Part shown: positions 29,278 through 64,000 of the stretch, piece by piece
How the letters are laid out: each line of letters opens with the position of its first letter
Numbering within the stretch: position 1 is the stretch's first letter
Source of the DNA: an uncultured Flavobacteriales bacterium
GTDB taxonomy: Bacteria > Bacteroidota > Bacteroidia > Flavobacteriales > UBA1820
Assembly: GCA_902462305.1 (NCBI GenBank)
Contig: CABQBC010000008.1
Span: 20,775-84,774, forward strand
DNA length: 64,000 nucleotides
Reading direction: 5' to 3'
Made by a program: the position numbers and the translations under genes
The notes under the pieces: model-generated
What the model saw: only the letters and a program-made list of their open reading frames with translations
Told to the model about the DNA's origin: nothing
The model's database searches: none

Positions 29278-29281
29278 ACAA

Positions 29282-43724: not shown

Positions 43725-45086
43725 ATGAACGAAGACACCATAGCGGCTCTTTCCACCCCGGCAGGGATGGGTGCTATATCCGTCATACGTATCAGCGGGC
43801 CTGAGGCTTTGCAGATAGCCGGCAAGGTATTCGTTTCCCCTTCGGGAAAAAGCCTTTCCGCCGCTGCCACGCACACGGCGCATTTCGGCACTGTCATGGA
43901 CGGTGATTCCGCCATCGACGAGGTCATTGCAACGGTATTTCGAGCTCCAAAATCTTTTACAGGCGAGGATACGGTCGAATTTTCATGCCATGGTTCGGTG
44001 TTCATACAACAGCAGATGCTTCAGCTTCTGGTGCGACGCGGGGCCCGTATGGCTATGGCGGGGGAATTTACAAAAAGGGCTTTCCTGAACGGCCGTATGG
44101 ACCTTTCACAGGCCGAGGCGGTGGCAGACCTTATAGAATCCGAGTCCTACGCTTCGCACGCTACGGCTATGAACCAGATGAGGGGCGGATACTCCGGTAA
44201 AATAGCTTCGCTGAAAAATTCGCTGACTGACTTTGCGGCTCTTTTGGAACTCGAACTCGATTTTTCCGACCAGGATGTCGAATTTGCTGACCGCACCCGC
44301 CTTACCGCCCTGGTACATGAAATAAAAAGCCTTACACGTAGCCTGGCTGATTCTTTTTCCGTGGGCAATGCGATAAAAAACGGCATTCCTGTGTCCATAA
44401 TCGGAGCTCCCAATGTCGGCAAATCTACTTTGCTGAATGCTCTTCTGGGCGAAGAAAAGGCTATCGTGTCGCATATTCCCGGTACTACCCGCGATTCTAT
44501 CGAGGACAGGATAACTATTTCGGGACTTTCGTTCCGTTTTATAGATACTGCCGGGCTGAGGGATACGGACGATTTTGTGGAAAAAATAGGCATCGAACGC
44601 ACTTACAAAAAAATCGACGAGGCTTCGGTTATCATTTATCTGCTCGATGCCGGGCGCGTATCGGCTTCCGATATGGATACTGTGACCGTATTAAAAAAGA
44701 AATACCCGGATAAGCATTTTATCGTAGCTGCAAATAAATCGGATGAATATGGCGGCGATTTTTTCGATTCGTTTTCCGATGTGCTGATGATTTCCGCACT
44801 CACTGGGGATGGTCTTGACGAATTGCGGGAAAAGATCGTCGGTTTTGTCAATATAGGGGATGTTTCCGACCGTATAATAGTGACAAATGCACGCCATTAC
44901 GAGGCACTGGTAAATGCGTGTTCATCTCTTGAAAATGTAGAGGCCGGGCTTTCCAACGGCTTTTCGGCAGATCTTCTGGCTGTAGATGTTAGAGATGCCA
45001 TATCGCACTTGGGAGAGATTACCGGCGATATTTCTTCGGACGATATTCTCGGTGTTATTTTCTCCAGGTTCTGCATCGGTAAGTAA
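43725..45086 (+). CDS. mnmE: tRNA modification GTPase MnmE (TrmE/ThdF)
   Basis: 453 aa. N-terminal DTIAALSTPAGMGAISVIRISG, G1 GAPNVGKSTLLN, DTAGLR, and the C-terminal FCIGK motif are all present. Confidence 0.96.
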   Translation: MNEDTIAALSTPAGMGAISVIRISGPEALQIAGKVFVSPSGKSLSAAATHTAHFGTVMDGDSAIDEVIATVFRAPKSFTGEDTVEFSCHGSVFIQQQMLQLLVRRGARMAMAGEFTKRAFLNGRMDLSQAEAVADLIESESYASHATAMNQMRGGYSGKIASLKNSLTDFAALLELELDFSDQDVEFADRTRLTALVHEIKSLTRSLADSFSVGNAIKNGIPVSIIGAPNVGKSTLLNALLGEEKAIVSHIPGTTRDSIEDRITISGLSFRFIDTAGLRDTDDFVEKIGIERTYKKIDEASVIIYLLDAGRVSASDMDTVTVLKKKYPDKHFIVAANKSDEYGGDFFDSFSDVLMISALTGDGLDELREKIVGFVNIGDVSDRIIVTNARHYEALVNACSSLENVEAGLSNGFSADLLAVDVRDAISHLGEITGDISSDDILGVIFSRFCIGK

Positions 45087-50463: not shown

Positions 50464-52107
50464 ATGCCTACACTGACTTGGATAGGAAAAGATAAAGTTG
50501 TGAATCATCATCAGGAGGTGCCATATCGGGTGCTGGAACACCAGTACGGGTTTCGGGCGGAGGATACAGATGATAAGACACCGACAAACAGCGGCAACAA
50601 GATCATACACGGCGACAACTTAGAGGCGCTGAAATCATTGCTACCCGAATACGAAGGTCGCGTTAAGTGCATCTATATCGATCCGCCGTACAATACGGGC
50701 AACGAAAAGTGGGTTTACAATGACAATGTGAACGACCCGAAAATCAAGAAGTGGCTGGGCGAGGTAGTCGGCAAGCAGGGCGAGGATTTGAGCCGTCATG
50801 ACAAGTGGCTTTGCATGATGTATCCGCGCCTGAAACTGCTGCACAAGTTATTGGCGGAAGACGGAGTTATTTTCATTTCGATTGACGATAACGAGCAGGC
50901 GAATTTGAAATTGCTGTGCGATGAAATATTCGGGGCGAATAAATTTGTCGGACAAGCAGTTTGGTTCAAAAAAAGAAAAGGATCATACTTGTCTAAAGAA
51001 TTTGTAAGCCTTACGGAGTACGTAATTTGTTATAGAAAAAATGATAAATTGAATCTATATGGAGGAAAGCCTAATAGTGGAGAATCTCAACCACTAGTAA
51101 AAAGAACCAACACTGTTGGATTACTAACTTTTCCAGCTAATATTGTTAGAACAAGACTTTTAGATAAGACATATCAATCGGGAATATACGGCAAAGGATC
51201 AAGTTCTGTTGAATTGTTAACGGATATTCATATCGAAAATGGAAGAATCATTAATGAATTTCAGCTTAAAGGGCCTTTTATTTGGACGCAAGACTTTTTA
51301 AATAGTGAATTAAAACAAGGTGCTGAAATCGTAATTAATACAATAAATTTACAGCCTCGAGTATTTAGAAATTCAGATGATAAATATAAAGGATTCCCAT
51401 CTTTTATTGATGGGCGTGAATTTTCTGCAACAAATGATGATGCTTATGAAAATTTAATAGACATCTTTGAAGAAGAAGGTATTTTCAATTATTCCAAACC
51501 TATGGAATTTGTTTCATTTTGTATCAATTCAATAGCATATTTCGATAAAAACGCCATTATCCTCGACTCCTTCGCCGGTTCAGGGACAACAGCCCATGCC
51601 GTACTGAATCTGAATAAGAAAGATGACGGTAACCGCAAATTCATTTTGGTTGAAATGGAAGATTATGCCGAAAACATTACTGCTGAGCGTGTACGGCGAG
51701 TAATGAAAGGTTACGGCGAGGGTAAAAATGCCGTAGCCGGAACGGGCGGCGCATTCGACTATTACGAGTTGGGCGAACGGATGTTCGACGAGAATCAAAA
51801 CCTCAACGAGAATATCGGCGAAGAGAAGATCCGCGAATATATCTACTACACCGAAACCAAGCGACATTTGGAACGCGAACGCACCAAAGTCGCTAAATAT
51901 CTGTTGGATACATACAATGCGACGGGTTACTATTTCTATTATGAAAAAGATTGTCTTACGACGCTAAGCATCGATACGCTGCATATCGTGACGGAGCGTG
52001 CCGAGCAGTATGTTATTTACGCCGACATCTGCACTGTACCGCCTCAAGTGATGGCAGCCCAAAATATTATTTTCAAAAAGATTCCGCGCGACATCAAACG
52101 ATTCTAA
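50464..52107 (+). CDS. mod: type III restriction-modification methyltransferase (Mod), beta-class N6-adenine/N4-cytosine type
   Basis: 547 aa. Motif IV DPPYNTG (50680-) precedes a variable middle region, which precedes motif I DSFAGSGTTAHA. This IV-TRD-I order is typical of Mod. The gene is directly followed by res. Confidence 0.88.
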   Translation: MPTLTWIGKDKVVNHHQEVPYRVLEHQYGFRAEDTDDKTPTNSGNKIIHGDNLEALKSLLPEYEGRVKCIYIDPPYNTGNEKWVYNDNVNDPKIKKWLGEVVGKQGEDLSRHDKWLCMMYPRLKLLHKLLAEDGVIFISIDDNEQANLKLLCDEIFGANKFVGQAVWFKKRKGSYLSKEFVSLTEYVICYRKNDKLNLYGGKPNSGESQPLVKRTNTVGLLTFPANIVRTRLLDKTYQSGIYGKGSSSVELLTDIHIENGRIINEFQLKGPFIWTQDFLNSELKQGAEIVINTINLQPRVFRNSDDKYKGFPSFIDGREFSATNDDAYENLIDIFEEEGIFNYSKPMEFVSFCINSIAYFDKNAIILDSFAGSGTTAHAVLNLNKKDDGNRKFILVEMEDYAENITAERVRRVMKGYGEGKNAVAGTGGAFDYYELGERMFDENQNLNENIGEEKIREYIYYTETKRHLERERTKVAKYLLDTYNATGYYFYYEKDCLTTLSIDTLHIVTERAEQYVIYADICTVPPQVMAAQNIIFKKIPRDIKRF

Positions 52108-52111
52108 CCTT

Positions 52112-54739
52112 ATGGAACTCAAACAATATCAAAAAGAGGTAATCGCCGATTTGGATGCATATATCGGGTATGTTGAAAAATACAACCGCCCCGATACGGC
52201 ATTCCATAAATTCTGGGAAGACAAAGGTATTCCGATCTCGGCAATCGACAATTACTATCTGCACCCGTACGACAACAGCATTACCGATTTGCCTCATGTA
52301 ACGGTCAAAGTGCCAACCGCCGGCGGCAAGACTTTTATAGCCTGCAATGCACTGAATACGATATTCAAGCATCTGCCCGCTGACAAGCCGAAAGTCGTGG
52401 CGTGGTTCGTGCCGTCGGATACGATTCTGAAACAGACCTATAAAAATCTGAACGACCCGTCGCACCCCTACCGGCAGAAGATCGACAGTCATTTCGGCAA
52501 TGCCGTATGCGTTGTCGACAAAGAAGCAGCATTGTTCGGGCATGGCATAAGTCCGACGGAGATTCGCGAGCAGCTGACTATTTTCGTATTGAGCGTGCAA
52601 TCGTTCGCCGCCAACAACAAGGACGGGCGACGTGTCTACCGTGAAAACGAGAATCTGGCGGAGTATGCCAAATTGTACGACACGATGACCAAACGAGTGG
52701 AAGGCTCAGACGAAACGGGATTGATCCAGGTACTGTCGTATCTGAATCCGGTCGTCATCATCGACGAAAGTCATAACTTCGAGGCCAACCTACGTGTGGA
52801 TATGCTTAAGGCTATCAATCCGTGTTTCATTCTCGACCTGACGGCGACGCCCCGCAATAAGAGCAATATCATCAGTTTCGTGGATGCCATTAAGCTCAAA
52901 CGGGCTAATATGGTGAAATTGCCGGTTATCGTATATAACCATCGCTCGACGAATGATGTCGTTTCGAGTGCGATACAGATGCAGCGTAGTCTGGAACAAA
53001 AAGCCATTGCGATGGAGGCAGAAGGTAGCCGGTACATTCGACCGATTGTGCTGTTCCAAGCCCAGCCGAAAACCGATGACGACAATATTACGTTCGACAA
53101 GATCAAAAAGAAGCTTATCGAAATCGGCATTCCTGAAGACCAAATAAAAATCAAAACGGCGAACAAAGACGAAATTAGAAACACCGACTTGTTGTCCCGC
53201 GACTGTCCGGTGCGTTACATCATTACGGTCAATGCGCTGAAAGAGGGCTGGGATTGTCCGTTCGCCTACATTCTCGCATCGCTGGCCAACAAGACCTCGC
53301 GGGTGGATGTCGAACAGATACTGGGCCGCGTATTGCGTCTGCCCTATACGACCAAGCACAAAGAGGAATTGCTTAACCTGTCATATGTATTTACCTCGTC
53401 CAACGATTTTCGGAATACGGTCGAGAATATCATAGAGGGGTTGAACCGTGCAGGCTTCAGCAAAAAGGATTACCGCGTAGCCGAGGCCCAGACAGAACCC
53501 GCTCCCGTTCCGACCGGGCAATCGTCTCCGAACCTGTTCGGCGACGACGAGCCGGTGCACGATACGCCTGCAATCACGACAACCGACGACATCGATGAGC
53601 AGATAAACACCGAAACGATTAAAACGGCGATTGCAACACCCTCCGAAAATACGGGGACGATCGAACTGGAGTCTTTTGCCCGGAAGGAGAATGAGAGCTA
53701 CAATCAACAGATGGCGCAGCAGACAGATAATAACGACATTCCGAATGATATTAAAGGTATGATAACCACATATCCGATTAAAGATATTTTTGCGGACAAA
53801 GCCAAAGAACTGGCATTGCCCCAATTCGTGAAAAAGATAAATGCCAACTTGATATTTGACGATGAATATGTTCCGTTGGACAAGGCTATGCTTGCTGAAG
53901 GGTTCGATTTGGACAAGTGCGACCACAATATCGACTTTACCCGAACCGAAAGTGAAGCGGTGCGTGTAGACCTGGAAAAATCCAGCGGAGATGAATATGC
54001 CGTTACAAGAAGAAACCTGACTGCAAATCAATTATCATTCATCAAACAACACTTTGCGACCTTATCGCCGGAAAGCAAACAGAGGCAACTGGCAGACATG
54101 TTAGCAAAAGGCCTTCGTTTCGACGAAATCTCCGAACCGCAGGTTGCACGTTATATCAAAAGGGCTATTGCAGGCGTAGATTCCGAGCAACTCGAAGATT
54201 TATACACGAACGATTGGCAGACAAGAAATACGATTCGCCAGAAGATCGAGTCGCTGCTGTCTGCCTATCAAGAAAAGAAATTCAAAGAGTGGCTCGACAC
54301 CGGTCAGATAAAATGTCAAGCTACATATCGCCTTCCGGAGCGGATAACCGTGAAAACAAAGTCCATCGGCTTGGCAAAAGGGCTTTATACGGAAGAGGAA
54401 AACATCAACGGTTTCGAGTATGACGTTATAAACGCTGTTGCCAATTTGGATAATGTTCTATTTTGGCATAGAAATCCGAGCCGCACGGGGTTCTGTATAA
54501 ACGGTTATATAAATCATTATCCCGACTTTATCGTCCTATTGAATAGCAACATTACCGTTCTTCTTGAAACAAAAGGCGATGATAGAGATAACTCAGACAG
54601 TCGGACGAAGGTCGAGTTAGGAAGGACTTGGGCCCATAAAGCAGGCGAGCAGTATCGTTATTTTATGGTATTCGAGAAGCAACAGATGGATGGTGCGGTT
54701 ACTATCAAGGAACTTTTGCAAAGATTGAGTGCAATGTAA
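52112..54739 (+). CDS. res: type III restriction enzyme Res subunit (SF2 helicase-nuclease)
   Basis: 875 aa with Walker A VPTAGGKT, DEAH-like IIDESHN, helicase C motifs (LKEGWDCPF, QILGRVLR), and a C-terminal PD-(D/E)xK-like block YPDFIVLL...VLLETKGDD. Confidence 0.88.
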   Translation: MELKQYQKEVIADLDAYIGYVEKYNRPDTAFHKFWEDKGIPISAIDNYYLHPYDNSITDLPHVTVKVPTAGGKTFIACNALNTIFKHLPADKPKVVAWFVPSDTILKQTYKNLNDPSHPYRQKIDSHFGNAVCVVDKEAALFGHGISPTEIREQLTIFVLSVQSFAANNKDGRRVYRENENLAEYAKLYDTMTKRVEGSDETGLIQVLSYLNPVVIIDESHNFEANLRVDMLKAINPCFILDLTATPRNKSNIISFVDAIKLKRANMVKLPVIVYNHRSTNDVVSSAIQMQRSLEQKAIAMEAEGSRYIRPIVLFQAQPKTDDDNITFDKIKKKLIEIGIPEDQIKIKTANKDEIRNTDLLSRDCPVRYIITVNALKEGWDCPFAYILASLANKTSRVDVEQILGRVLRLPYTTKHKEELLNLSYVFTSSNDFRNTVENIIEGLNRAGFSKKDYRVAEAQTEPAPVPTGQSSPNLFGDDEPVHDTPAITTTDDIDEQINTETIKTAIATPSENTGTIELESFARKENESYNQQMAQQTDNNDIPNDIKGMITTYPIKDIFADKAKELALPQFVKKINANLIFDDEYVPLDKAMLAEGFDLDKCDHNIDFTRTESEAVRVDLEKSSGDEYAVTRRNLTANQLSFIKQHFATLSPESKQRQLADMLAKGLRFDEISEPQVARYIKRAIAGVDSEQLEDLYTNDWQTRNTIRQKIESLLSAYQEKKFKEWLDTGQIKCQATYRLPERITVKTKSIGLAKGLYTEEENINGFEYDVINAVANLDNVLFWHRNPSRTGFCINGYINHYPDFIVLLNSNITVLLETKGDDRDNSDSRTKVELGRTWAHKAGEQYRYFMVFEKQQMDGAVTIKELLQRLSAM

Positions 54740-54752
54740 TTAGCAGATAGCT

Positions 54753-55661
54753 ATGGACGATAATAAAATAATTATTTACCAAGACGATAACGACGTAACG
54801 CGAGTGTCCGTTCGTTTTGCTGACGAAGATTTGTGGCTTACGCAGAATCAGCTGGCTGAGATATACGATACGACGCAGGAGAATATCTCCATGCACATTG
54901 CGAACATATATCGAGACGGAGAGTTGGAGTTGGACCGAACTTATAAGAAATTCTTATTAGTTCGTACCGAAGGTTCTCGGCAAGTGAAACGCAATATCGA
55001 CCATTACAACCTAGATATGGTTATCGCGTTGGGCTATCGCGTTCAATCACAGATCGCCACACGATTCCGTCGCTGGGCAACGCTTCGGCTTCACGAATAT
55101 ATCCAGAAGGGCTTTGTGATGGACGATGAACGACTCAAACAGGGCGGGAATCGCTATTTCAGGGAACTCTTGCAGCGCATACGGGATATTCGCAGCAGTG
55201 AACGCAATTTCTATCAGCAGGTTACGGATATTTACGCGACCGCCGTCGACTATGATCCACGCAGCGATATGACCAAAACATTCTTCGCTACGGTTCAGAA
55301 TAAGCTGCACTATGCCGTTCACGAGAATACCGCAGCCGAGGTAATCTATAACCACGTGGACAACGAAAAGCCTTTTGTCGGAATGACAAACTTCAAAGGC
55401 AACTATGTAACCAAAGACGATGTGAAAATTGCCAAGAACTATTTATCGGAAATCGAATTGCAACGGTTGAATCTTTTAGTATCGGGATTTTTGGATTTCG
55501 CAGAATTTCAGGCGTTGGAGATGAATCCGATGACAATGAAAGATTGGATTGAGACGCTCGATAATCAAATTATCGCCAACAAGTGCAAGGTATTGGCAGG
55601 CAAAGGCACTGTTTCCAAAAAGCTGAAAAGGAGTTCGACATATACCGTCGGCGCGAAATGA
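54753..55661 (+). CDS. rhuM: RhuM-family protein, C-terminal tail shifted out of frame
   Basis: 302 aa with IIYQDDNDVTRVSVRFADEDLWLTQNQLAEIY...NISMHI..IY, YNLDMVIALGYRV and FYQQVTDIYATAVDYD. The expected tail AEKEFDIYRRREMSLFESDFDRAIKML is encoded from 55622 to 55723 in another frame, after an A5 run at 55617-55621. Confidence 0.8.
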   Translation: MDDNKIIIYQDDNDVTRVSVRFADEDLWLTQNQLAEIYDTTQENISMHIANIYRDGELELDRTYKKFLLVRTEGSRQVKRNIDHYNLDMVIALGYRVQSQIATRFRRWATLRLHEYIQKGFVMDDERLKQGGNRYFRELLQRIRDIRSSERNFYQQVTDIYATAVDYDPRSDMTKTFFATVQNKLHYAVHENTAAEVIYNHVDNEKPFVGMTNFKGNYVTKDDVKIAKNYLSEIELQRLNLLVSGFLDFAEFQALEMNPMTMKDWIETLDNQIIANKCKVLAGKGTVSKKLKRSSTYTVGAK

Positions 55662-55730: not shown

Positions 55731-56360
55731 ATGATTCGCGAACTAACCTACAATAACAGGATACTGTCCGAACAAGAACGTGCAGAGTTCTGCAAAAAAT
55801 CAGATGAAGATATACACGAGTTTTCCGAGTGTATTGAGGGAATATGCCAACTTGCAAAGGAGGTTCCGGAATCTGAAAATTCTGATTATAACAAAATAAC
55901 TAATACAATAATCAATATCAGCACTTTTACAGGTTACTCTTTTTGTGATTGCATCGTATTGACAAAATTATTTGTCAAGGCGACGAATCCGTATGAAAAA
56001 AGTTTTCTTCGGGGCAAACTGAAGGTTCAACTGAATGAAGGCTTCAAAAAGCTATATGGGTTTAACAAGAAGGGGTATAAAGATTCATATTGCGCACATT
56101 TAGAAGATATTATAACAATGTTCCCCGGATTCAAGGACGAATTTGATGAACTATTGTCAGACTTGGAGCAAATTTCAAAAAATTCTTGGTGGAAAGACGA
56201 AAGAGATGCTGAAGTACACATCGACGCGACCAAACTCTATGAACTACGACATGAAGAGATAAATGAGAGTAAAATTGTCATGGAAGCAGTGCAATTAACG
56301 GATTTATTCAACCGTTTTAATCATCTTGTAGCCAGATTGCATCGAGTGTATCTCAATTAA
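55731..56360 (+). CDS. hypothetical protein (209 aa), no recognisable domain
   Basis: A clean ORF starting 8 nt after the out-of-frame rhuM tail. It is predicted helical, with several Cys near the N-terminus (CKK...CIEGIC...CDC). Confidence 0.55.
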   Translation: MIRELTYNNRILSEQERAEFCKKSDEDIHEFSECIEGICQLAKEVPESENSDYNKITNTIINISTFTGYSFCDCIVLTKLFVKATNPYEKSFLRGKLKVQLNEGFKKLYGFNKKGYKDSYCAHLEDIITMFPGFKDEFDELLSDLEQISKNSWWKDERDAEVHIDATKLYELRHEEINESKIVMEAVQLTDLFNRFNHLVARLHRVYLN

Positions 56361-56859: not shown

Positions 56860-57078
56860 ATGGGAAAAGAACTCAATCGACTAAAAGTGGTGCTTGCTGA
56901 AAAGAGACGCACTAATAAATGGTTGGCACAACAGCTTGGTAAAGACCCTGCTACTGTATCCAAATGGTGTACTAATACAGCGCAGCCTTCACTTGAGACA
57001 CTTTCTGATATTGCCATGAGTCTTGAAGTTGACGTTAAGGATTTACTTCAATCGTCAATTAAGAAACAGGATTATTAA
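56860..57078 (+). CDS. XRE-family helix-turn-helix regulator (controller-protein-like), heads the M/S/kinase operon
   Basis: 72 aa. LKVVLAEKRRTNKWLAQQLGKDPATVSKWCTNTAQPSLETLSDIAMSLEVDVKDLL follows the same HTH_3 pattern as the 50118 gene. Confidence 0.85.
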   Translation: MGKELNRLKVVLAEKRRTNKWLAQQLGKDPATVSKWCTNTAQPSLETLSDIAMSLEVDVKDLLQSSIKKQDY

Positions 57079-57132
57079 AATAGACCAAGATGGATATGGC
57101 AATAACTTTAAACTTATGTAATTTTGTATAAT

Positions 57133-59154
57133 ATGGCTAACTATGACATCGACAAAAAGCAGTTGCAGGATGAGGTTGTCCTTGATGACAACCAACTTGT
57201 CTGTGTCTTGACCAATTCTATAAAAACCGCCACCGAGAAAGAACTTCTTCTTCAATCTATAATCAACCAGATGGACGAGGAATATGAATTTGATCTTTCC
57301 GATATGAAACGCAACTATTCTTTCTCATATGAAGATGATGAGGGAAAGAAAAAGCGCATGACTATAGACTTGGCAATATTCCCTCATGGAGCAGAGAAAG
57401 AACCGGAAAATATAGAGCGTATTTGCATTGTCTTTGACTCTAAGGCAAAAGAAAGCGATAAGAAGAAGGGTGTCGAGGCTACTCTTCATAAGGCACTCCA
57501 AGCTACAGGGTGCGACTTCGGAATGTGGACTAATGGAGATAAACAATTCTTTGCCTATAGAAAAGAAGATGAGATTGGCAATGAACGAATTGAAGATATT
57601 AGCGATTTCCCCGGTTGCGATGAAACCATAGAAGATCTTGAAAGCATGGGCGACCGTGCCCAACCTCGTAAGGCTGCCAATGATACTCTTATTCGCACGT
57701 TTAAGCGTTGTCATGACTATCTTTACGGAAACGAGGGTAGAAAAAAGGATGCGTTTTGGGAACTTCTCAATCTGATATTTTGTAAGATTTTCGATGAAAA
57801 ACGTCGCTTTTCGGATACCGAGAAGGGGTTCAGTTATCGCCGCCAGTTCTGGGTTGGCGTTACAGAACAGAATACACCTGAAGGTCAAGCTACAGTTGCC
57901 AAACGAATTAAGGATATCTTTGAGAAACTGAAAAAGGATGACCTTTTTAAAACAGTCTTTGACGGAAACGAGCAGATTAGTTTGTCTGACCGAGGCGTTG
58001 CCTATGTCGCATCGCAGATAGCCAAATACAATTTCCTTGATGCTACTGTTGACGTCAAGGGTACTGCTTACGAAACAATCGTAAGCAATACTCTCAAACA
58101 GGAGGCTGGTCAGTTCTTCACACCACGCAATATAATAAAGTGTATGGTTGAGATTATGAATCCAAACCAGAATTGTCGCGTGCTCGACCCAGCTTGTGGT
58201 AGTGGAGGTTTTCTTGTAATGGTTCTCGACCATGTACGTCGCCAAATAACCCGCAATATCTATTCAGCTCGTTCCGAAGCTGAGATTGAGGCTCTATCAA
58301 ATACTGATGAAATAGTCAATAGAATTGTTCGTCAATATGCTGAGTCGATGATATTCGGTTTCGATTTTGACCCTGACTTGAAGAAAGCCGCAAAGATGAA
58401 TATGGTTATGGCAGGTGACGGACATAGCAACATATTCAATATCAACTCACTTGAATATCCTAATGGTTCATTGCCTGACCTCGGACGTATAAATGAAGCG
58501 ATCAAGACAAGCGTTGACCATAGAGGCGACTATGCCACATGTGACCAACATGCGGCTAAAGACAGTGCCTTCGGCAAGTTCGATATGATATTTACAAATC
58601 CACCCTTTGGCTCAAAGGTTGAGGTTGCACAGGGCATTGTGGAACACTATGAACTGTCAGCATGGATAAAATCGCCAGAGGGACTGTTCATAGAGCAATG
58701 TTATAACTTCCTAAAACCGGGTGGTAAAATGGCTATAGTCTTACCTGATGGCATACTCAGCAACCCCAATACTGAAAAGGTTCGTGAATGGATACTTTCA
58801 AAGTTCAAGCTGATTGCATCCATAGACCTTCCGGTCGAGGCATTTCTGCCGCAAGTAGGCGTTCAGTCATCACTACTCTTCTTACAGAAGAAGACAGGTA
58901 TTGAACTTGGTCAGAAGGAAGATTATGAAGTATTCATGGCAATAGCCGAAAAGGTTGGCAAAGACCGCAGAGGCAATCCTATTTACAAACGGGATGACGA
59001 TGGTGCAGAAATTCTCTACCCGACAAAGAAAGAATGGGCAGCCCGTAATCGTCATGGAGAACTCGTAACTCGCAGTCGTATAGAACGAGTGCGCCAGCTC
59101 GATGATGACCTTCCGGAAATTTCAGAGGAATATAAAAAAATTATGGGGATATGA
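57133..59154 (+). CDS. N6-adenine DNA methyltransferase, HsdM-like core with an N-terminal HsdR_N / PD-(D/E)xK-like module
   Basis: The track ORF starts at a TTG at 57124; the first ATG is at 57133 (MANYDIDKK). Core motifs are QFFTPRNIIKCMV, DPACGSGGFL (motif I) and FTNPPFGSK (motif IV). The N-terminal region contains KKRMTIDLAIF...ERICIVFDSKAK. Confidence 0.88.
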   Translation: MANYDIDKKQLQDEVVLDDNQLVCVLTNSIKTATEKELLLQSIINQMDEEYEFDLSDMKRNYSFSYEDDEGKKKRMTIDLAIFPHGAEKEPENIERICIVFDSKAKESDKKKGVEATLHKALQATGCDFGMWTNGDKQFFAYRKEDEIGNERIEDISDFPGCDETIEDLESMGDRAQPRKAANDTLIRTFKRCHDYLYGNEGRKKDAFWELLNLIFCKIFDEKRRFSDTEKGFSYRRQFWVGVTEQNTPEGQATVAKRIKDIFEKLKKDDLFKTVFDGNEQISLSDRGVAYVASQIAKYNFLDATVDVKGTAYETIVSNTLKQEAGQFFTPRNIIKCMVEIMNPNQNCRVLDPACGSGGFLVMVLDHVRRQITRNIYSARSEAEIEALSNTDEIVNRIVRQYAESMIFGFDFDPDLKKAAKMNMVMAGDGHSNIFNINSLEYPNGSLPDLGRINEAIKTSVDHRGDYATCDQHAAKDSAFGKFDMIFTNPPFGSKVEVAQGIVEHYELSAWIKSPEGLFIEQCYNFLKPGGKMAIVLPDGILSNPNTEKVREWILSKFKLIASIDLPVEAFLPQVGVQSSLLFLQKKTGIELGQKEDYEVFMAIAEKVGKDRRGNPIYKRDDDGAEILYPTKKEWAARNRHGELVTRSRIERVRQLDDDLPEISEEYKKIMGI

Positions 59155-60554
59155 TAGCCGGTAAAATGAAAATATCAGCTGTTGGAGAATGTCGTTCTCG
59201 CTTAGATGGTTCATATCATTTAAGTGAGGCTCAAATTGTAAAAAAGAAAATAGCGGCTTCTCCTTACCCCCTTTTGAATATAGGGAAAGTAACTGAAAGA
59301 ATCTGGCACGCTGGTCGTTGGAAAAGAGTATATGTTGATAATCCTAAGACTGGCATTACACTTTTAGGCAGCTCTGCCATGCTTAAAGGCGATTTATCTC
59401 ACGAAAAGCTTGTATCCAAGAGATACACAGATGACATTTCGGATAAAATCCTGCAAGCAGGATGGATTCTTATATCATGTTCTGGCACAATAGGTAATTG
59501 CGCGTTTACAAACGCGCAACATGCTGGGAAGCTTGCTTCCCAGGATGTTATTCGGCTTAAGCCGAATAACATCCTGGGGGCTGGACTGATATATGCATAT
59601 CTTGCCTCAAAATATGGGTATGTCATGCTCACACAAGGAACATCAGGCTCTGTTATACAGCATATTGAACCAGAAAATGTCGAAGTAATTCCAATTCCCA
59701 ACTTTCCGGATTCATTTAAAAATAATGTAAACCAACTTATACAAGACTCTTCAAAACTAAGAGATGAAGCTATGTATGAGTTAGATGCAGCGGACAAACT
59801 TTTAAAAGAGAAGGCCGGATTGCGGCCATTAACACCGGAAGACTATGATTACTTTGGTCAGCATAGTGCAACTCGGAAGCCAAGTTGCTTTATTCGCAAC
59901 AGTAATGAGATATCGACCCGTTCAATAAATGCGTTCAACTATTCACAAAGACTTGAACGACTGAAAAGATTACTTCCAGCGTCAAGGCCTTTGCGTAATA
60001 TTCTTTTGAATAATACAACATTTTCTACCGGTTCTTTTCCTCGAATAGAAGTAAAAAGGGGGAACGGAGTAATGCTTATTAATCAGTCTGATGCCTTTGA
60101 CACAATCATAAATGGCAAATGGATTTCATCACGCAATGTCAATCTTTCCAATCTTGTATCTTATGGAGAAGTTATTGTGGCGGGAGTAGGCACACTTGGC
60201 GAAAATGAAACCTTTTGTAGGACATTTTTCGCTAATGAAGATTTGAAAGGACAACTCATATCCGGAGAGTTCATCCGTATGAAAACTACGAGTGATATAC
60301 CTTCAGGATTCCTCTATGCATGGCTTAATTCTGAATATGGTTTTCGCCTTATTAGAGGGACACAGGCTGGCACAAAATTATGCCGTCCCATCCCGGAAGC
60401 ATTTCTCGACATACCTGTCCCAATTCTTGCAAATGAAGACATGAACGAGATTGATCGTATGGTCAGAGACGCACACACAAAACGCCGTCTGGCTAACGAG
60501 AAAGAATTGAAAGCCATAGCAATGGTAGAGGCTGAGATAGAGAAATGGAATTAG
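59151..60554 (+). CDS. restriction-modification specificity subunit (HsdS-like, two target-recognition domains)
   Basis: 467 aa. The ATG overlaps the methylase stop (ATGA). Two homologous halves each end in a helical spacer (…IPIPNFPDSFKNNVNQLIQDSSKLRDEAMYELDAADKLLKEK and …IPVPILANEDMNEIDRMVRDAHTKRRLANEKELKAIAMVEAEIEKW). Confidence 0.85.
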   Translation: MIAGKMKISAVGECRSRLDGSYHLSEAQIVKKKIAASPYPLLNIGKVTERIWHAGRWKRVYVDNPKTGITLLGSSAMLKGDLSHEKLVSKRYTDDISDKILQAGWILISCSGTIGNCAFTNAQHAGKLASQDVIRLKPNNILGAGLIYAYLASKYGYVMLTQGTSGSVIQHIEPENVEVIPIPNFPDSFKNNVNQLIQDSSKLRDEAMYELDAADKLLKEKAGLRPLTPEDYDYFGQHSATRKPSCFIRNSNEISTRSINAFNYSQRLERLKRLLPASRPLRNILLNNTTFSTGSFPRIEVKRGNGVMLINQSDAFDTIINGKWISSRNVNLSNLVSYGEVIVAGVGTLGENETFCRTFFANEDLKGQLISGEFIRMKTTSDIPSGFLYAWLNSEYGFRLIRGTQAGTKLCRPIPEAFLDIPVPILANEDMNEIDRMVRDAHTKRRLANEKELKAIAMVEAEIEKWN

Positions 60555-60580: not shown

Positions 60581-63500
60581 ATGGCAAAACTTTGTACTCC
60601 AATACATAGCACAGGACCCGTGAATGCCGGAGAGAAGCATTTATTTGACTTCCTACAAGTTAACTTGCCTGACAGCTATTATATCATACCCAATGGTGAA
60701 TATCCCTATATCAATCCGAATGGGGGTACTCAGTTCATGGAGTGCGACTGCATCGTGGTTGCTCCCCATGCAATCTATCTTATCGAAAACAAGGACTACA
60801 AAGGCCGTCTTGAAGCATACGATAGCGCATGGTTTCATAACGACCGAGAAATTAAGAATCCTATTAAGGGTGTTACATTCAAAGGCAAAGTCCTTAGCGA
60901 CTATCTAAAACGCAAGAACGGACATTGGAAGGCTGCATGGATTGAATCTATTGTAACCCTAAGTAACCTCAATCAGAACAAATCAGGATTTGAGGCCGGC
61001 TCTGCCAGCGACAACAAGACATTCCTGCTCAATGATGAACTTATCAATTTCATTAAGGAGCCTGACAGGTTGCCTCATTATGTCCCGGCAAGTGCGATTG
61101 CGTCTTACCAATTCGACATTACCGACTATCTTATGGGTAGCAGTGTTAGTCGGGCTCACGTCCGCACTAATGTATGTGGTATGATTATCGACGAGATACT
61201 TGATACTACTGATGATTATGTAGAATACCTTTGCCATAAGAAATTCCCAACTGACAAAAAGTATAAGGTTCGCGATTACGCATTAAATCAGGTCGGTATG
61301 TCGCCCGTTCAGATTGAGAAGTATGAAAAGTTGGTCCATAATGGTGAGATTACCGAGGATTATCTTCCTGACAATACCGGGGTAATCATTAAGAGTCGGT
61401 TTGAGTCGGAGGAGAATCACTATTATGTGATAACGCCCTATCAAGATGACCGTTCTCTACGAAGTGAGATGGCTCGCAACACATTCACAGAGTTGGATAA
61501 GATTCAGATTTTGTTGAATGTCGCTGAGGCTCTCTCTTTAGCTCATGAACAGAATGTGATACATAGAGATGTGCGTCCGGAGAATATTTTTATCCAATCA
61601 GACCGCAGGGCTGCGCTTGCTAATTTTGGGTTGGCATATAACGAAGCTCACGATGACGCAAGCTTTAATGTCACTGTAGATTTAGAGGATTTCGACTTGA
61701 ATGCCTATACTTCTGAGGATGTATTTATTGGAGACTACTCAGCAGCATCGGATGTTTATTCTTTCGGAGTTCTTGCCTATGAGCTAATGACAGGACAGAA
61801 GTTGCCATTCGACAATTTCAAAGAGTTGTTGATGAAAGGTGGTAAACTTCCCAAGGATTTGCTTCCCTCTGCGGTAAATTCCAACGTTGAGAAATGGGTG
61901 GATGAACTTTGCGAAAGAACAATAGTTGTTGATCCGACCGAAAGATGGGCCAACATAGATGAAGTACGCCAATTCATCTTTGAGAATGGTATAATTGCCC
62001 ACACGCAGCAATCCTCAGCTCCTGAAGCCAATGGAAGTCTTGATGACTTGAAACCTACAGACCGTATTACCAACGACATAGTTCTTGGTGAAATGCTTGG
62101 CGAAGGTGGATTCTCAAAGGTTTTCAAAGCAAAACACCAATATCAGCCCGGTGCTTTATATGTCGCCAAAATATTCAAAGAGGGCGTAAGCCCACAAGCA
62201 ACTGTTGATGAATTCAAGGCATTGAATGACCTGAATCATCCGAACATAGTGAGATTCCGTGGAAACGGGACAACCAATGGAGGGTTGTTCTATACTCTTA
62301 TGGACTATGTTGATGGAACAGACATCCGCCGCTATGCGAGTGGCGACACATTCCTTCCTCTCACACTGGTGAAATCATTTCTCAAACAAATGATTTCTGC
62401 TCTTGTGTATATACAGGAAAAACAGCCTCCGGTAATACACAGAGACATCAAGCCTGAAAATATAATGTATCGCAAAGATGGGGCGTTCGTGCTCATCGAT
62501 TTCAACATAGCTACAAACAAGGAAGGAGATCGACATAAGGTAGGCACTTATCGTTATGTGGCACCCGACCTGACAGTCGGAAGCAAGATGAACTGGGACT
62601 TAGGTGCAGATACATTTGCTCTAGGAGTCACGGCATATGAATTATTAAGCCATATCTATCCTTGGGGAAGTAGTCAGACACCTGTTCTTGACCAGACTCC
62701 GGTCAACATCCTTGACAGGAATCACCTCATTTCCGATAAATTCGCAAAATTCATAATGAAGGCTTGCGAAACACGAAAGGAGAACCGATTCCAAAACGCC
62801 AAAGAAATGCAAGAGGCATTTGATACTCTTGATCGTATAGATTCCTCTATTGAATTTTATAGTAAGGATGGGACAGAATACAATATCGTCGATTATATTA
62901 ATTCCCTCTATAGTCAGAGTGAACGAGGTAATGCCGGAACTCGTGCAGGATTTAAGAACGACAACATTCTTGACAAACTGACATATACCGAGACGCGCCT
63001 CGACTCCAAACTTTTAGAAGACATAAAGCATGGTGACTATAAGCTTATAATCATAACCGGTAATGCCGGCGATGGCAAGACTGCGTTTATACGTCAGGTT
63101 GAGAACGCCGGAACAGATCTCAATTATGTTGAGTCCCGCAATGGCGCAAAATTCCGTCTGGGTGGCGTCATATTTGAAAGTAACTACGATGGTTCTCAAG
63201 ATGAACATAACCTAAAGAATAACGATGTTCTGGCAAAGTTTTTTGAGCCATTCATCGGTATTGAGGATTATCGAAGTGCTGTGGAGGGCCGCATAATTGC
63301 TATTAATGAAGGTCGATTGATGGAATATCTGGAGTCAACTCCGGAGCTTACGGGATTACATAATGCCATTGACGAATACTTTTACAAAGAGGGTGTTGCC
63401 ACCCTTCCTGACGGCGTCATGGTTATTAATCTTAATCTTCGTTCGGTTACTGCCCTTGACGAAAATGGAGAGTCATTGTTGCGCAAACAGGTAAAGGTTT

Positions 63501-64000
63501 TGACCGATAAGAAGTTTTGGAACAAATGTCTGGGATGTCCGATAGCCGACCGTTGCTTCATTAAATATAACGTCGATTCACTCAACGATTCGGCTGTTGG
63601 CAACGAGATAATAAAACGTCTGGAGTGGATAGTCCGCACAATCGTATATAAACGGGAACTCCATATAACCATGCGTGATTTGCGCTCAATGATAGCGTGG
63701 ATGCTTACTCGTGATTATTCGTGCGCAGACATGCCCCACCTTATTGAATTATTAGATAAGGCAAAAAAAGAATACGAAGAGACACTGGAAGATGCGACTG
63801 ACGAGGAAAAGAATAATCGCAGGACCACATACGAACTTGAACGGCAAAGGTGGTGGACGCGCTATTATTTCAACATTACGGCGCCTGAACATTCATGGTT
63901 CCCCAATCAGCACTCCGAAGACCGAGTCGTAAAACTTCTGCGTGAAACAGATATTGCAAATGTTGCAATACCAGAGCTTGATCGAAATCTCTATTTCAGT
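60581..64000 (+). CDS. giant multidomain protein with NERD, kinase-like (degenerate), Ser/Thr kinase, P-loop NTPase and Cys cluster; C-terminus outside the window
   Basis: Not in the ORF track because there is no stop. I translated 60581-64000 by hand and found 1140 codons with no stop. Key motifs are ECDCIVVAPHAIYLIENK (NERD), HRDVRPEN + NFG, GEGGFS / YVAKIF / HRDIKPEN / DFN / GTYRYVAPD, ITGNAGDGKT and CLGCPIADRC. Confidence 0.85.
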   Translation, partial: MAKLCTPIHSTGPVNAGEKHLFDFLQVNLPDSYYIIPNGEYPYINPNGGTQFMECDCIVVAPHAIYLIENKDYKGRLEAYDSAWFHNDREIKNPIKGVTFKGKVLSDYLKRKNGHWKAAWIESIVTLSNLNQNKSGFEAGSASDNKTFLLNDELINFIKEPDRLPHYVPASAIASYQFDITDYLMGSSVSRAHVRTNVCGMIIDEILDTTDDYVEYLCHKKFPTDKKYKVRDYALNQVGMSPVQIEKYEKLVHNGEITEDYLPDNTGVIIKSRFESEENHYYVITPYQDDRSLRSEMARNTFTELDKIQILLNVAEALSLAHEQNVIHRDVRPENIFIQSDRRAALANFGLAYNEAHDDASFNVTVDLEDFDLNAYTSEDVFIGDYSAASDVYSFGVLAYELMTGQKLPFDNFKELLMKGGKLPKDLLPSAVNSNVEKWVDELCERTIVVDPTERWANIDEVRQFIFENGIIAHTQQSSAPEANGSLDDLKPTDRITNDIVLGEMLGEGGFSKVFKAKHQYQPGALYVAKIFKEGVSPQATVDEFKALNDLNHPNIVRFRGNGTTNGGLFYTLMDYVDGTDIRRYASGDTFLPLTLVKSFLKQMISALVYIQEKQPPVIHRDIKPENIMYRKDGAFVLIDFNIATNKEGDRHKVGTYRYVAPDLTVGSKMNWDLGADTFALGVTAYELLSHIYPWGSSQTPVLDQTPVNILDRNHLISDKFAKFIMKACETRKENRFQNAKEMQEAFDTLDRIDSSIEFYSKDGTEYNIVDYINSLYSQSERGNAGTRAGFKNDNILDKLTYTETRLDSKLLEDIKHGDYKLIIITGNAGDGKTAFIRQVENAGTDLNYVESRNGAKFRLGGVIFESNYDGSQDEHNLKNNDVLAKFFEPFIGIEDYRSAVEGRIIAINEGRLMEYLESTPELTGLHNAIDEYFYKEGVATLPDGVMVINLNLRSVTALDENGESLLRKQVKVLTDKKFWNKCLGCPIADRCFIKYNVDSLNDSAVGNEIIKRLEWIVRTIVYKRELHITMRDLRSMIAWMLTRDYSCADMPHLIELLDKAKKEYEETLEDATDEEKNNRRTTYELERQRWWTRYYFNITAPEHSWFPNQHSEDRVVKLLRETDIANVAIPELDRNLYFS

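What the first reader, a model, noticed from the sequence alone, without database searches (positions are those of the whole stretch)
57133..60554. Methylase carries its own PD-(D/E)xK-like N-terminal module and pairs with a separate S subunit (BcgI-like plan), which may explain the missing HsdR
The first ~150 aa of the methylase (…KKRMTIDLAIFPHG…ERICIVFDSKAKE…) resemble the HsdR_N / PD-(D/E)xK nuclease-like module, with D...D-x-K spacing. This module is fused to an HsdM-like gamma-class core, and a separate two-TRD S-like protein follows. A nuclease-methylase A subunit plus an S-like B subunit is the layout of BcgI-type IIB restriction enzymes. The pair could therefore be a self-contained cutter-modifier. 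Alternatively, the N-terminal module is non-catalytic and the pair only supplies specificity and self-marking for the downstream kinase protein. The two readings give the operon very different mechanisms.
Basis: inference. Interest (0 to 1): 0.55.

Follow-up and report, generated by a model that had tools for sequence, protein, structure and literature searches.

The report
MADS defence methylase with dead nuclease domain
The methylase and specificity genes are the MAD2 and MAD5 parts of an already described phage-defence system (MADS); the methylase does carry a nuclease-like front end, but its usual cutting residues have been replaced, so the pair most likely recognises and marks DNA for the neighbouring kinase and ATPase genes and does not cut by itself.

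Summary
ORF 57133..59154 (673 aa) has an N-terminal HSDR_N_2 / PD-(D/E)xK-like domain (aa ~20-160) fused to a gamma-class N6-adenine methylase. It overlaps by 4 bp a two-TRD S gene (59151..60554). Its closest solved structure is the type IIB enzyme RM.BsaXI.

The pair is not a self-contained cutter. Both proteins pass NCBIfam equivalog cut-offs for MAD2 and MAD5 of the Methylation-Associated Defence System. MAD6 starts at 60581, and MAD7 and MAD8 follow on the same scaffold. Nearly every one of 80 species-level loci with enough downstream DNA keeps the order MAD2-MAD5-MAD6-MAD7-MAD8.

A sister family of stand-alone methylase+S pairs (80 loci, none with MAD6-8) keeps E, D, ExK and Q of the QxxxY motif in 78-80 of 80. 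In 77 MADS MAD2s the ExK position is never acidic; in the window it is I99-V-F101. It is conserved only in Bacteroidota and is lost or shifted in intact operons.

The NERD nuclease motif of MAD6 is almost invariant (58-61 of 61). This is a new member of a known system.

The parts
56860..57078 (+). 72-aa HTH regulator in the mad1 position
   Evidence: Pfam HTH_26 41 bits and HTH_3 31 bits. A gene is called at the same place on the identical scaffold L001 and in B. finegoldii. No MAD1 NCBIfam equivalog hit was found, so the assignment rests on position and fold class only.
57133..59154 (+). mad2: N6-adenine DNA methyltransferase with an N-terminal nuclease-like domain (673 aa)
   Evidence: NCBIfam NF047738 MAD2 equivalog 763 bits, cut-off 720. 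PADLOC mad2 225 bits. Best PDB match is RM.BsaXI by sequence (E 3.8e-35, aa 191-594) and by fold (E 1e-22, 656-696 columns).
57190..57612 (+). MAD2 N-terminal HSDR_N_2 / PD-(D/E)xK-fold domain (aa ~20-160)
   Evidence: Pfam PF13588 above gathering score. AF2 pLDDT about 90-95. hhalign probability 100% to the canonical family. Foldseek best hit 8w0p_A.
57367..57369 (+). D79, the only canonical catalytic residue retained (beta2)
   Evidence: D in 80/80 canonical relatives. In 77 MADS MAD2s it is D 36, E 27, S 8, with T and A among the rest.
57427..57435 (+). I99-V100-F101: the position of the canonical catalytic E-x-K, replaced by hydrophobic residues (beta3, aa 96-100)
   Evidence: The alignment between D79 and G113 needs no gaps apart from a one-residue indel near aa 86. 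hhalign pairs I99-V-F101 with E-C-K. E99 and K101 are 80/80 in the canonical family. Position 99 is never acidic in 77 MADS MAD2s.
57436..57444 (+).
   Evidence: DSSP of both models puts beta3 at 96-100 and a loop at 101-114. D102 and K104 are 95% conserved within 55 Bacteroidota sequences and absent in other MADS clades. K104 is S or Q in L014, L036 and L041. The acidic residue shifts to position 103 in L033, L050 and L051. All six have MAD6 downstream.
58051..58989 (+). N6_Mtase catalytic domain (aa 307-619), motif I DPACGSGGF (58186..58212), motif IV NPPF (58597..58608)
   Evidence: Pfam PF02384 125 bits. Motif positions.
59151..60554 (+). mad5: specificity (S) subunit, 467 aa, two TRD halves (about 59172..59762 and 59892..60485)
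   Evidence: NCBIfam NF047740 MAD5 equivalog 490 bits, cut-off 400. Pfam Methylase_S on aa 87-183. The halves align at E 2e-14.
60581..64000 (+). mad6 (first 1140 of 1390 aa; runs off the window): NERD domain, two protein-kinase domains and a P-loop motif (GNAGDGKT)
   Evidence: NCBIfam NF047741 MAD6 equivalog 572 bits, cut-off 460; 575 bits on the full protein from L001. Pfam NERD and 2x Pkinase. The P-loop motif is read from the translation.
60623..60961 (+). NERD (PD-(D/E)xK) domain of MAD6 with intact E18, D56, E69-x-K71
   Evidence: Pfam NERD 52.7 bits. Across MADS loci: E18 61/61, D56 61/61, E69 58/61, K71 61/61. Codon coordinates.

Best explanation
The two genes are mad2 and mad5 of a MADS (Methylation-Associated Defence System) operon. 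The operon order is HTH regulator, MAD2, MAD5, MAD6 (NERD-kinase-kinase, with a P-loop motif), MAD7 and MAD8. The last two lie just beyond the window end.

Proposed mechanism:
- MAD2 and MAD5 assemble into a type I / type IIB-like methyltransferase. By analogy the stoichiometry is M2S1.
- The two TRDs of MAD5 read a bipartite site and MAD2 N6-methylates adenines there, marking host DNA as self.
- As with HsdM and HsdS in type I enzymes, the same complex is probably also the sensor of unmethylated sites on invading DNA. It hands that signal to MAD6, MAD7 and MAD8.

The N-terminal domain of MAD2 descends from an HsdR-N / RecB-like PD-(D/E)xK nuclease domain. The same domain is intact in a sister family of stand-alone methylase+S pairs. 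In MAD2 the catalytic E-x-K and the QxxxY motif are lost, so the domain most likely serves as a structural, DNA-contact or docking module and not as a nuclease. The best-conserved nuclease candidate in this MAD3/MAD4-less operon is the NERD domain of MAD6.

Shown here: family membership, operon context, the fold, and loss of the canonical residues. Inferred: stoichiometry, the sensor role, and what the N-domain does now.
For: - NCBIfam equivalogs pass their cut-offs: MAD2 763/720, MAD5 490/400, MAD6 572/460; MAD7 542/410 and MAD8 182/175 on scaffold L001, which is identical to the window over the shared stretch.
- Of the 80 species-representative loci that encode a MAD2 relative, nearly all with enough downstream DNA have MAD5-MAD6-MAD7-MAD8 in the same order, in several phyla including Bacteroidota, Acidobacteriota and Chloroflexota. 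L068 and L082 are decayed remnants.
- The aa 1-195 domain has only 243 relatives (E <= 1e-3) among 1.84 billion representatives. In 14 of the 15 near-full-length hits (557-1093 aa) the match begins within the first ~55 residues; P0147 is the exception, with the match at aa 168-349.
- The alignment between D79 and G113 needs no gaps apart from a one-residue indel near aa 86, and hhalign (probability 100%) places canonical E-x-K on I99-V-F101.
- Canonical stand-alone family (80 loci, 0 with MAD6-8): E61 78/80; D79, E99, K101 and Q117 all 80/80. In 77 MADS MAD2s position 99 is never acidic, position 101 is mostly Q, and position 117 is mostly T.
- Pfam HSDR_N_2 scores 84-95 bits in canonical proteins against 29 here.
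- The MAD6 NERD motif is E18 61/61, D56 61/61, E69 58/61 and K71 61/61.
- Published genetics of the P. aeruginosa system (bioRxiv 10.1101/2023.03.30.534895): a bipartite site TCAGNNNNTCC is methylated in a mad2-dependent way. mad2 is also needed for defence. mad5 cannot be deleted unless mad2 or mad3 is deleted too.
Against: - D102 and K104 are 95% conserved within 55 Bacteroidota MAD2s, and position 79 stays acidic in 51/55. Some function for this charged cluster is likely, and a relocated active site cannot be excluded without model coordinates or biochemistry.
- This operon lacks MAD3 (OLD/Toprim) and MAD4 (DUF4276), the obvious nuclease candidates of the 8-gene system, so some other nuclease must act. 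The MAD6 NERD domain is a candidate, not a demonstrated effector.
- No experiment has been done on any Bacteroidota MADS. The mechanism of MADS is unpublished in the papers I could read; the final Cell Host Microbe paper was not held.
Confidence: 0.78

Rival explanations
1. Self-contained type IIB (BcgI/BsaXI-like) restriction-modification enzyme. MAD2 would be an RM fusion subunit that both cuts and methylates, MAD5 its S subunit, and the kinase gene an unrelated neighbour.
For: RM.BsaXI is the best PDB match by sequence and by fold over the whole length. The gene pair has the same two-gene layout. A sister family with the same architecture does occur as stand-alone pairs. An HsdR_N-HsdM fusion plus S restricts DNA without HsdR in Zymomonas mobilis (PMC8432527).
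Against: The residues essential for BsaXI cleavage (E73, D90, E105, K107; PMC11997821) correspond to E61, D79, E99 and K101 of the canonical family. Only D79 survives here: the window has N61, I99 and F101. The pair is followed by MAD6-8 in nearly all related loci with enough downstream DNA. The proteins pass MADS equivalog cut-offs.
Confidence: 0.06
2. MADS member, but the MAD2 N-domain is still a nuclease using a relocated active site (E37, D79, D102, K104). It would supply the DNA-cutting step in Bacteroidota operons that lack MAD3 and MAD4.
For: D102 and K104 are 95% conserved and position 79 is 93% acidic in 55 Bacteroidota MAD2s whose mean N-domain identity is 57%. E37 and Q41 are invariant in both families. 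Migration of active-site residues is known in the PD-(D/E)xK superfamily (my own knowledge). This operon has no MAD3 or MAD4. In P. aeruginosa, mad5 loss is tolerated only if mad2 or mad3 is also lost, so MAD2 takes part in the toxic activity.
Against: D102 and K104 lie in the loop after beta3, three residues past the canonical site. Loci with MAD6 downstream have S or Q at 104 (L014, L036, L041) or the acidic residue moved to 103 (L033, L050, L051), so the i/i+2 spacing is not kept. Other MADS clades have AKPGTK or QPPGTK there, and S, A or G at 79. The QxxxY motif is gone.
Confidence: 0.12
3. Orphan type I HsdM+HsdS pair that borrows an HsdR encoded elsewhere in the genome.
For: The methylase core and S subunit are type I-like. 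Sharing of HsdR between systems is known (PMC8432527).
Against: No HsdR-like ORF is present in the 64-kb window; the only ResIII protein belongs to the adjacent type III Mod/Res pair. The conserved partners are MAD6-8. The N-terminal extension is not a feature of type I HsdM.
Confidence: 0.03

Closest known systems
MADS, Methylation-Associated Defence System of Pseudomonas aeruginosa SMC4386 (Maestri et al., bioRxiv 10.1101/2023.03.30.534895; Cell Host Microbe 2024)
   Same: MAD2, MAD5, MAD6, MAD7 and MAD8 all pass NCBIfam equivalog cut-offs. The gene order is the same, with an HTH gene in front. The logic is methylase + S + kinase + DptG-like + large ATPase.
   Different: There is no mad3 (AbiEii/OLD-Toprim ATPase) and no mad4 (DUF4276) between mad2 and mad5. 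The full 8-gene layout is seen on a Piscinibacter plasmid. A 96%-identical operon in Bacteroides finegoldii is followed by a PP2C phosphatase and a Fic gene. The host phylum is Bacteroidota (Duncaniella-like MAG). The preprint and its supplementary notes describe mad2 only as an N6-methyltransferase and do not mention the N-domain.
Type IIB restriction-modification enzymes BsaXI (PDB 8w0p, 8w2p, 8w2q; PMC11997821) and BcgI (PMC3592470)
   Same: N-terminal PD-(D/E)xK-fold domain, helical linker and gamma-class N6A methylase in one chain, with a separate two-TRD S subunit. BsaXI is the best PDB hit by sequence and fold.
   Different: BsaXI cleavage needs E73, D90, E105 and K107. The equivalent set here is reduced to D79. 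MAD2 (673 aa) is 243 residues shorter than RM.BsaXI (916 aa), whose 'paddle' residues lie at 811-823, beyond the end of MAD2. The pair is never stand-alone; it is embedded in MADS.
Stand-alone HSDR_N_2-methylase + S pairs (canonical sister family found here; probable experimental example Zymomonas mobilis ZMO1934/ZMO1933, PMC8432527)
   Same: 32-38% identity to MAD2 over nearly the full length. Same domain order and an overlapping downstream S gene.
   Different: E61, D79, E99-x-K101 and Q117 are conserved in 78-80 of 80 loci. No MAD6-8 lies within 10 kb in 0/80 loci. Neighbours are otherwise unconserved. Whether ZMO1934 belongs to exactly this family was not tested.
Type I restriction-modification methyltransferase M2S1 (EcoKI, 2y7c; StySJI M, 2okc)
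   Same: HsdM-like catalytic core and a two-TRD HsdS-like subunit reading a bipartite site.
   Different: There is no HsdR motor subunit. MAD2 has an extra N-terminal nuclease-fold domain. The partners are a kinase and ATPases.
BREX type 2 / Pgl system (PglW kinase, PglX methylase)
   Same: A methylase is combined with a large NERD-kinase protein. MAD6 matches the PglW models weakly.
   Different: MAD6 scores 222 bits against a PglW cut-off of 990. The methylase here is type I/IIB-like with a separate S subunit, not PglX. No PglY or PglZ was seen.

Membership tests
MADS (MAD2/MAD5) | MAD2 and MAD5 proteins match the curated equivalog models above their cut-offs | tested here: met
   NF047738 763 bits (cut-off 720); NF047740 490 bits (cut-off 400). 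MAD2 is only just above its cut-off, so this is a divergent member.
MADS (MAD2/MAD5) | Same-strand operon with the mandatory MAD6, MAD7 and MAD8 (the MacSyFinder rule of the describing paper) | tested here: met
   MAD6 is in the window from 60581. MAD7 and MAD8 are on the identical scaffold L001.
MADS (MAD2/MAD5) | mad3 (OLD/Toprim ATPase) and mad4 (DUF4276) present (accessory in the paper's model) | tested here: not met
   mad5 overlaps mad2 by 4 bp, so no gene lies between them. These genes are classed as accessory, so their absence does not exclude membership.
MADS (MAD2/MAD5) | mad2-dependent m6A methylation of a bipartite motif and a methylation-sensitive defence phenotype | not testable with these tools
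   Needs a methylome and phage assays. Only the catalytic motifs DPACGSGGF and NPPF and the two TRDs are shown.
Type IIB restriction enzymes (BcgI/BsaXI) | One chain with an N-terminal PD-(D/E)xK-fold domain and a gamma-class N6A methylase, plus a separate S subunit | tested here: met
   Pfam HSDR_N_2 + N6_Mtase. Foldseek full-length match to 8w0p, 8w2p and 8w2q. Two-TRD S subunit.
Type IIB restriction enzymes (BcgI/BsaXI) | Conserved catalytic E...D...(D/E)xK in the nuclease domain | tested here: not met
   Canonical E61, E99 and K101 are N61, I99 and F101 here; only D79 is kept. No residue-level structural superposition on BsaXI itself was available.
Type IIB restriction enzymes (BcgI/BsaXI) | Self-sufficient two-gene system | tested here: not met
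   MAD6-8 follow in nearly all related loci with enough downstream DNA. By contrast, the canonical family has 0/80 with MAD6-8.
Type IIB restriction enzymes (BcgI/BsaXI) | Double-strand cleavage on both sides of the recognition site | not testable with these tools
   Biochemical assay needed.
Pfam HSDR_N_2 (PF13588, PD-(D/E)xK clan) | Profile match above the gathering score | tested here: met
   28.9 bits for the whole protein and 31.8 bits for the domain alone, against 25. Canonical relatives score 84-95 bits.
Type I restriction-modification | HsdR subunit with an SF2 motor and nuclease, encoded with HsdM and HsdS | tested here: not met
   No such ORF is in the window. The ResIII protein at 52112..54739 pairs with the type III Mod at 50464..52107.
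BREX type 2 / Pgl | PglW equivalog kinase with PglX, PglY and PglZ | tested here: not met
   PglW model 222 bits against a cut-off of 990. BREX PglX models score 20-37 bits against cut-offs of 500-900.

The most novel reading that the evidence does not exclude
MADS arose by capturing a type IIB-like nuclease-methylase+S module, and the captured nuclease domain was rewired, not simply killed. In the Bacteroidota MAD3/MAD4-less operons the conserved cluster E37, D/E79, D102 and K104 would form a relocated active site, or a regulated one switched on through MAD6 (for example by phosphorylation or docking). MAD2-MAD5 would then be both the sensor and one of the cutters.
Probability: 0.12. Interest if true: 0.55.

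Novelty: new member of a known kind. Interest (0 to 1): 0.3.

Why it matters
For annotation, the pair should be read as MAD2/MAD5 of a MADS operon. It is neither an orphan type I M+S pair nor a type IIB enzyme.

For biology, the comparison gives a clean natural experiment. The same nuclease-methylase+S architecture exists in two sister forms:
- stand-alone, with the E/D/ExK/QxxxY motif positions conserved in 78-80 of 80 loci;
- inside MADS, with the ExK position never acidic in 77 sequences.

This suggests that MADS borrowed a type IIB-like recognition and modification module and moved the killing function to other proteins. It points experiments on the still unknown MADS mechanism at two targets: the MAD6 NERD domain, and the role of the degenerate MAD2 N-domain. 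I did not find the N-domain mentioned in the MADS preprint. The gain is incremental, because the system itself is already described and has curated models.

Tried and rejected
- Sequence searches of the N-domain against the PDB found nothing useful, either with the single sequence (no hit at E <= 10) or with a profile (one chance hit at E = 2). No residue-level alignment to the BsaXI nuclease domain could therefore be made, and Foldseek output gives no residue mapping.
- Model coordinates are not exposed, so distances between D79, D102 and K104 could not be measured. I relied on DSSP and alignment register.
- A first MAFFT run with gappy loops left open a 3-residue shift that would equate D102-S-K104 with ExK. 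I rejected this after the near-gapless alignment anchored by E92/N93, K106, D109 and G113 and after hhalign.
- The second homologue search returned only sequences of 184-359 aa, and the two whose loci I examined were a split gene and a transposon-flanked remnant. Full-length context came instead from the metagenome scan.
- The published Cell Host Microbe paper could not be read. Only the preprint and its supplements were used.
- Type I with a shared HsdR, and BREX type 2, were considered and rejected (see the membership tests).
- Whether Z. mobilis ZMO1934 belongs to the canonical family could not be checked, because no sequence was at hand.


Full report
**What is at the coordinates**

Two same-strand ORFs fill the stated interval.
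- A 673-aa protein runs from the ATG at 57133 to 59154. An in-frame TTG lies at 57124, but gene calls on identical contigs use the ATG.
- A 467-aa protein runs from 59151 to 60554 and overlaps the first by ATGA.
- A 72-aa HTH gene lies just upstream (56860..57078).
- A very long ORF starts at 60581 and runs off the window.

- The first protein matches Pfam N6_Mtase (aa 307-619, 125 bits) and HSDR_N_2 (aa 40-159). The HSDR_N_2 score is 28.9 bits for the whole protein and 31.8 bits with E 1.6e-7 for the domain alone, against a gathering score of 25.
- Motif I (DPACGSGGF, aa 352) and motif IV (NPPF, aa 489) are present in that order.
- AlphaFold2 models, built on a 90-row alignment, give the N-domain (aa ~20-160) pLDDT of about 90-95. 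The secondary-structure order is helix 35-50, strands 58-67, 73-82 and 96-100, helix 115-125, strand 129-133.
- The full-length model's best PDB matches are the three RM.BsaXI entries (type IIB), at E about 1e-22 over 656-696 aligned columns, ahead of type I HsdM structures.
- The N-domain model alone again finds 8w0p_A first (E 8e-4). Weak hits follow to a putative restriction endonuclease domain, tRNA splicing endonuclease and EcoR124I HsdR.
- By sequence, RM.BsaXI is also the best PDB hit (E 3.8e-35), but only for aa 191-594.
- The second protein is an S subunit. Pfam Methylase_S matches aa 87-183, and its two halves align with each other at E 2e-14.

The N-domain holds five [DE]xK triplets against 4.2 +/- 1.7 in shuffles, and 99% of shuffles contain D-x(10-30)-[DE]xK.

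**What the genes are**

- Both proteins pass NCBIfam equivalog cut-offs for the Methylation-Associated Defence System: MAD2 763 bits (cut-off 720) and MAD5 490 bits (cut-off 400).
- The downstream ORF is MAD6 at 572 bits (cut-off 460). It has a NERD domain, two protein-kinase domains and a P-loop motif (GNAGDGKT).
- A 181-kb metagenome scaffold, identical to the window over the shared stretch, continues with MAD7 (542/410) and MAD8 (182/175).
- PADLOC gives the same picture (mad2, mad5, mad6), and its best-scoring models for the pair are labelled type II methyltransferase and type II specificity subunit.
- The operon is HTH-MAD2-MAD5-MAD6-MAD7-MAD8. It lacks mad3 and mad4 of the 8-gene P. aeruginosa prototype. 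The full 8-gene layout is seen on a Piscinibacter plasmid.
- A 96%-identical operon in Bacteroides finegoldii is followed by a PP2C phosphatase and a Fic gene.

**Is the pair ever self-contained?**

- A scan of one genome per species returned 80 loci with MAD2 relatives. They include Bacteroidota, Acidobacteriota, Chloroflexota and proteobacterial genomes; the best match is a Duncaniella MAG at 96%.
- Nearly every locus with enough downstream DNA carries MAD5, MAD6, MAD7 and MAD8 in the same order.
- The two exceptions with flank, L068 and L082, have a truncated S gene and look like remnants.
- The N-domain is a narrow family, with 243 relatives at E <= 1e-3 among 1.84 billion representatives. 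In 14 of the 15 near-full-length hits (557-1093 aa) the match begins within the first ~55 residues; P0147 is the exception, with the match at aa 168-349.

**Are the catalytic residues there?**

The more distant relatives form a canonical family. Its invariant residues are EEYVRQ, an E in beta1, R-x-D in beta2, E-x-K in beta3, and QLxxY. This is the RecB-like motif set of HsdR nuclease domains; that comparison rests on my own knowledge.

Between D79 and G113 the two families have the same length apart from a one-residue indel near aa 86, and they share E92/N93, K106 and D109. The alignment therefore needs essentially no gaps. It places the canonical E-x-K on I99-V100-F101 of the window protein, and Q...Y on T117...A121. 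An independent profile-profile alignment agrees (hhalign probability 100%, E 2.8e-46).

Counts at the motif positions:

| Position | Canonical family (80 loci) | MADS-context MAD2 (77 sequences) |
|---|---|---|
| 61 | E 78/80 | D 68, N 6 (the window has N) |
| 79 | D 80/80 | D 36, E 27, S 8; T and A among the rest |
| 99 | E 80/80 | I, V, L or F in 73; Q in 1; never acidic |
| 101 | K 80/80 | Q 40, K 14, A 7, R 6, F 3 |
| 117 | Q 80/80 | T 43, Q 6 |

Pfam HSDR_N_2 scores 84-95 bits in canonical proteins against 29 here.

- It is 95% conserved within 55 Bacteroidota sequences.
- It is missing in other MADS clades, which have AKPGTK, QPPGTK or an EPK variant.
- K104 is S or Q in L014, L036 and L041. 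The acidic residue moves to 103 in L033, L050 and L051. All six loci have MAD6 downstream.
- A strict i/i+2 catalytic pair would not tolerate these changes.

**What the canonical relatives are**

- A metagenome scan with the canonical N-domain profile gave 80 loci.
- Where the contig reaches that far, each has a full-length methylase (32-38% identical to MAD2 over about aa 30-670) and an overlapping S gene. None has MAD6, MAD7 or MAD8 within 10 kb.
- In 15 long loci only M and S are conserved. A gene with an Mrr_cat domain is next to S in four of them.
- This is the BcgI/BsaXI plan in stand-alone form. An HsdR_N-HsdM fusion plus S has been shown to restrict DNA without HsdR in Zymomonas mobilis (PMC8432527).
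- For BsaXI, E73, D90, E105 and K107 of the N-terminal domain are essential for cleavage (PMC11997821).

**Where a nuclease may be instead**

- The NERD domain at the start of MAD6 keeps E18 (61/61), D56 (61/61), E69 (58/61) and K71 (61/61) across MADS loci. This contrasts with the decayed motif in MAD2.
- No HsdR-like gene is in the window. The only ResIII protein belongs to the neighbouring type III Mod/Res pair.

**Mechanism proposed**

- Shown here: membership in MADS, the operon, the fold, loss of the canonical catalytic residues, intact methylase motifs, and two TRDs.
- From the literature on the P. aeruginosa system:
  - a bipartite site (TCAGNNNNTCC) is methylated in a mad2-dependent way;
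  - unmethylated sites are targeted;
  - mad2 is needed for defence as well as for methylation;
  - mad5 can only be deleted together with mad2 or mad3.
- Inferred:
  - MAD2 and MAD5 form an M2S1-type complex that marks self DNA.
  - As in type I enzymes, the complex also recognises unmodified sites for the effector proteins MAD6, MAD7 and MAD8.
  - The N-domain is a former nuclease kept as a structural, DNA-contact or docking module.

I put this at about 0.78. A relocated active site in the Bacteroidota clade remains possible (about 0.12). The self-contained type IIB reading is unlikely (about 0.06).

**Novelty**

MADS is published and has curated NCBIfam and PADLOC models, so the window holds a new, MAD3/MAD4-less Bacteroidota member of a known system. 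The preprint and its supplementary notes call mad2 simply an N6-methyltransferase. The link to an intact stand-alone sister family, and the systematic loss of ExK and QxxxY in MADS, may therefore be a small new point. I could not read the final paper to check this.

Noticed in passing
window 50464..55661: A complete type III restriction-modification pair lies directly upstream of the MADS operon: Mod 547 aa (N6_N4_Mtase) and Res 875 aa (ResIII). A RhuM-family gene follows it (PADLOC PDC-S05). This is a defence island downstream of mnmE (43725..45086).
   Followed up: partly
window 55731..56360: A 209-aa ORF between RhuM and the HTH gene has no significant hit in Pfam, NCBIfam or PADLOC. It is also called as a gene on the identical scaffold L001.
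   Followed up: partly
L168 (Bacteroides finegoldii NZ_OY725936.1) 28753..30019: After MAD8 of a 96%-identical operon come a PP2C phosphatase (221 aa) and a Fic protein, which are not part of the published 8-gene MADS. A kinase-phosphatase pairing may be a feature of this variant. In that record the operon is preceded by integrase, relaxase and mobilisation genes, and it again lies next to mnmE.
   Followed up: no
L006 4602..6005 (Duncaniella MAG): MAD2, MAD6, MAD7 and MAD8 are 94-96% identical to the window, but MAD5 is only 77% identical. TRD1 is 92-97% identical and TRD2 (aa 241-400) only 40-65%. This is a TRD swap that should change one half-site of the recognition sequence.
   Followed up: partly
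L079 9914..13938 (Chloroflexi UBA6077): Two tandem MAD2 paralogues (667 and 674 aa) precede MAD5. The second has an even more degenerate N-domain. This is reminiscent of M1M2S methyltransferases such as PacII (PDB 7vru). Similar ~2-kb gaps between MAD2 and MAD5 occur in L081, L083 and L084.
   Followed up: partly
L104 13424..14428, L142 13371..14447, L162 13444..14472, L098 10630..11694: In 4 of 15 long loci of the stand-alone canonical methylase+S family, a ~340-aa protein with an Mrr_cat restriction-endonuclease domain sits next to the S gene.
   Followed up: partly
window 57313..57315 (MAD2 residue 61): The window protein has N61. At this position 68/77 MADS MAD2s have D and 78/80 canonical relatives have the beta1 glutamate. 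Even the 96%-identical L006 copy has D.
   Followed up: partly
L013 6310..7992; L016, L018, L025-L027 (gap between MAD5 and MAD6): Several Bacteroidota MADS operons carry a ~2-kb insert between mad5 and mad6 (a 560-aa ORF in L013). In others the extra distance reflects a longer MAD6 (1490 aa in L026). The inserted ORF was not identified.
   Followed up: no
L086 10001..13511; L087 10001..10933: Canonical-family N-domains occur as short ORFs. In L086 the gene is split into a 234-aa N-domain ORF and a 365-aa methylase ORF followed by an S gene; this could be a frameshift or a long-read assembly error. In L087 a 310-aa ORF sits among transposase genes.
   Followed up: no
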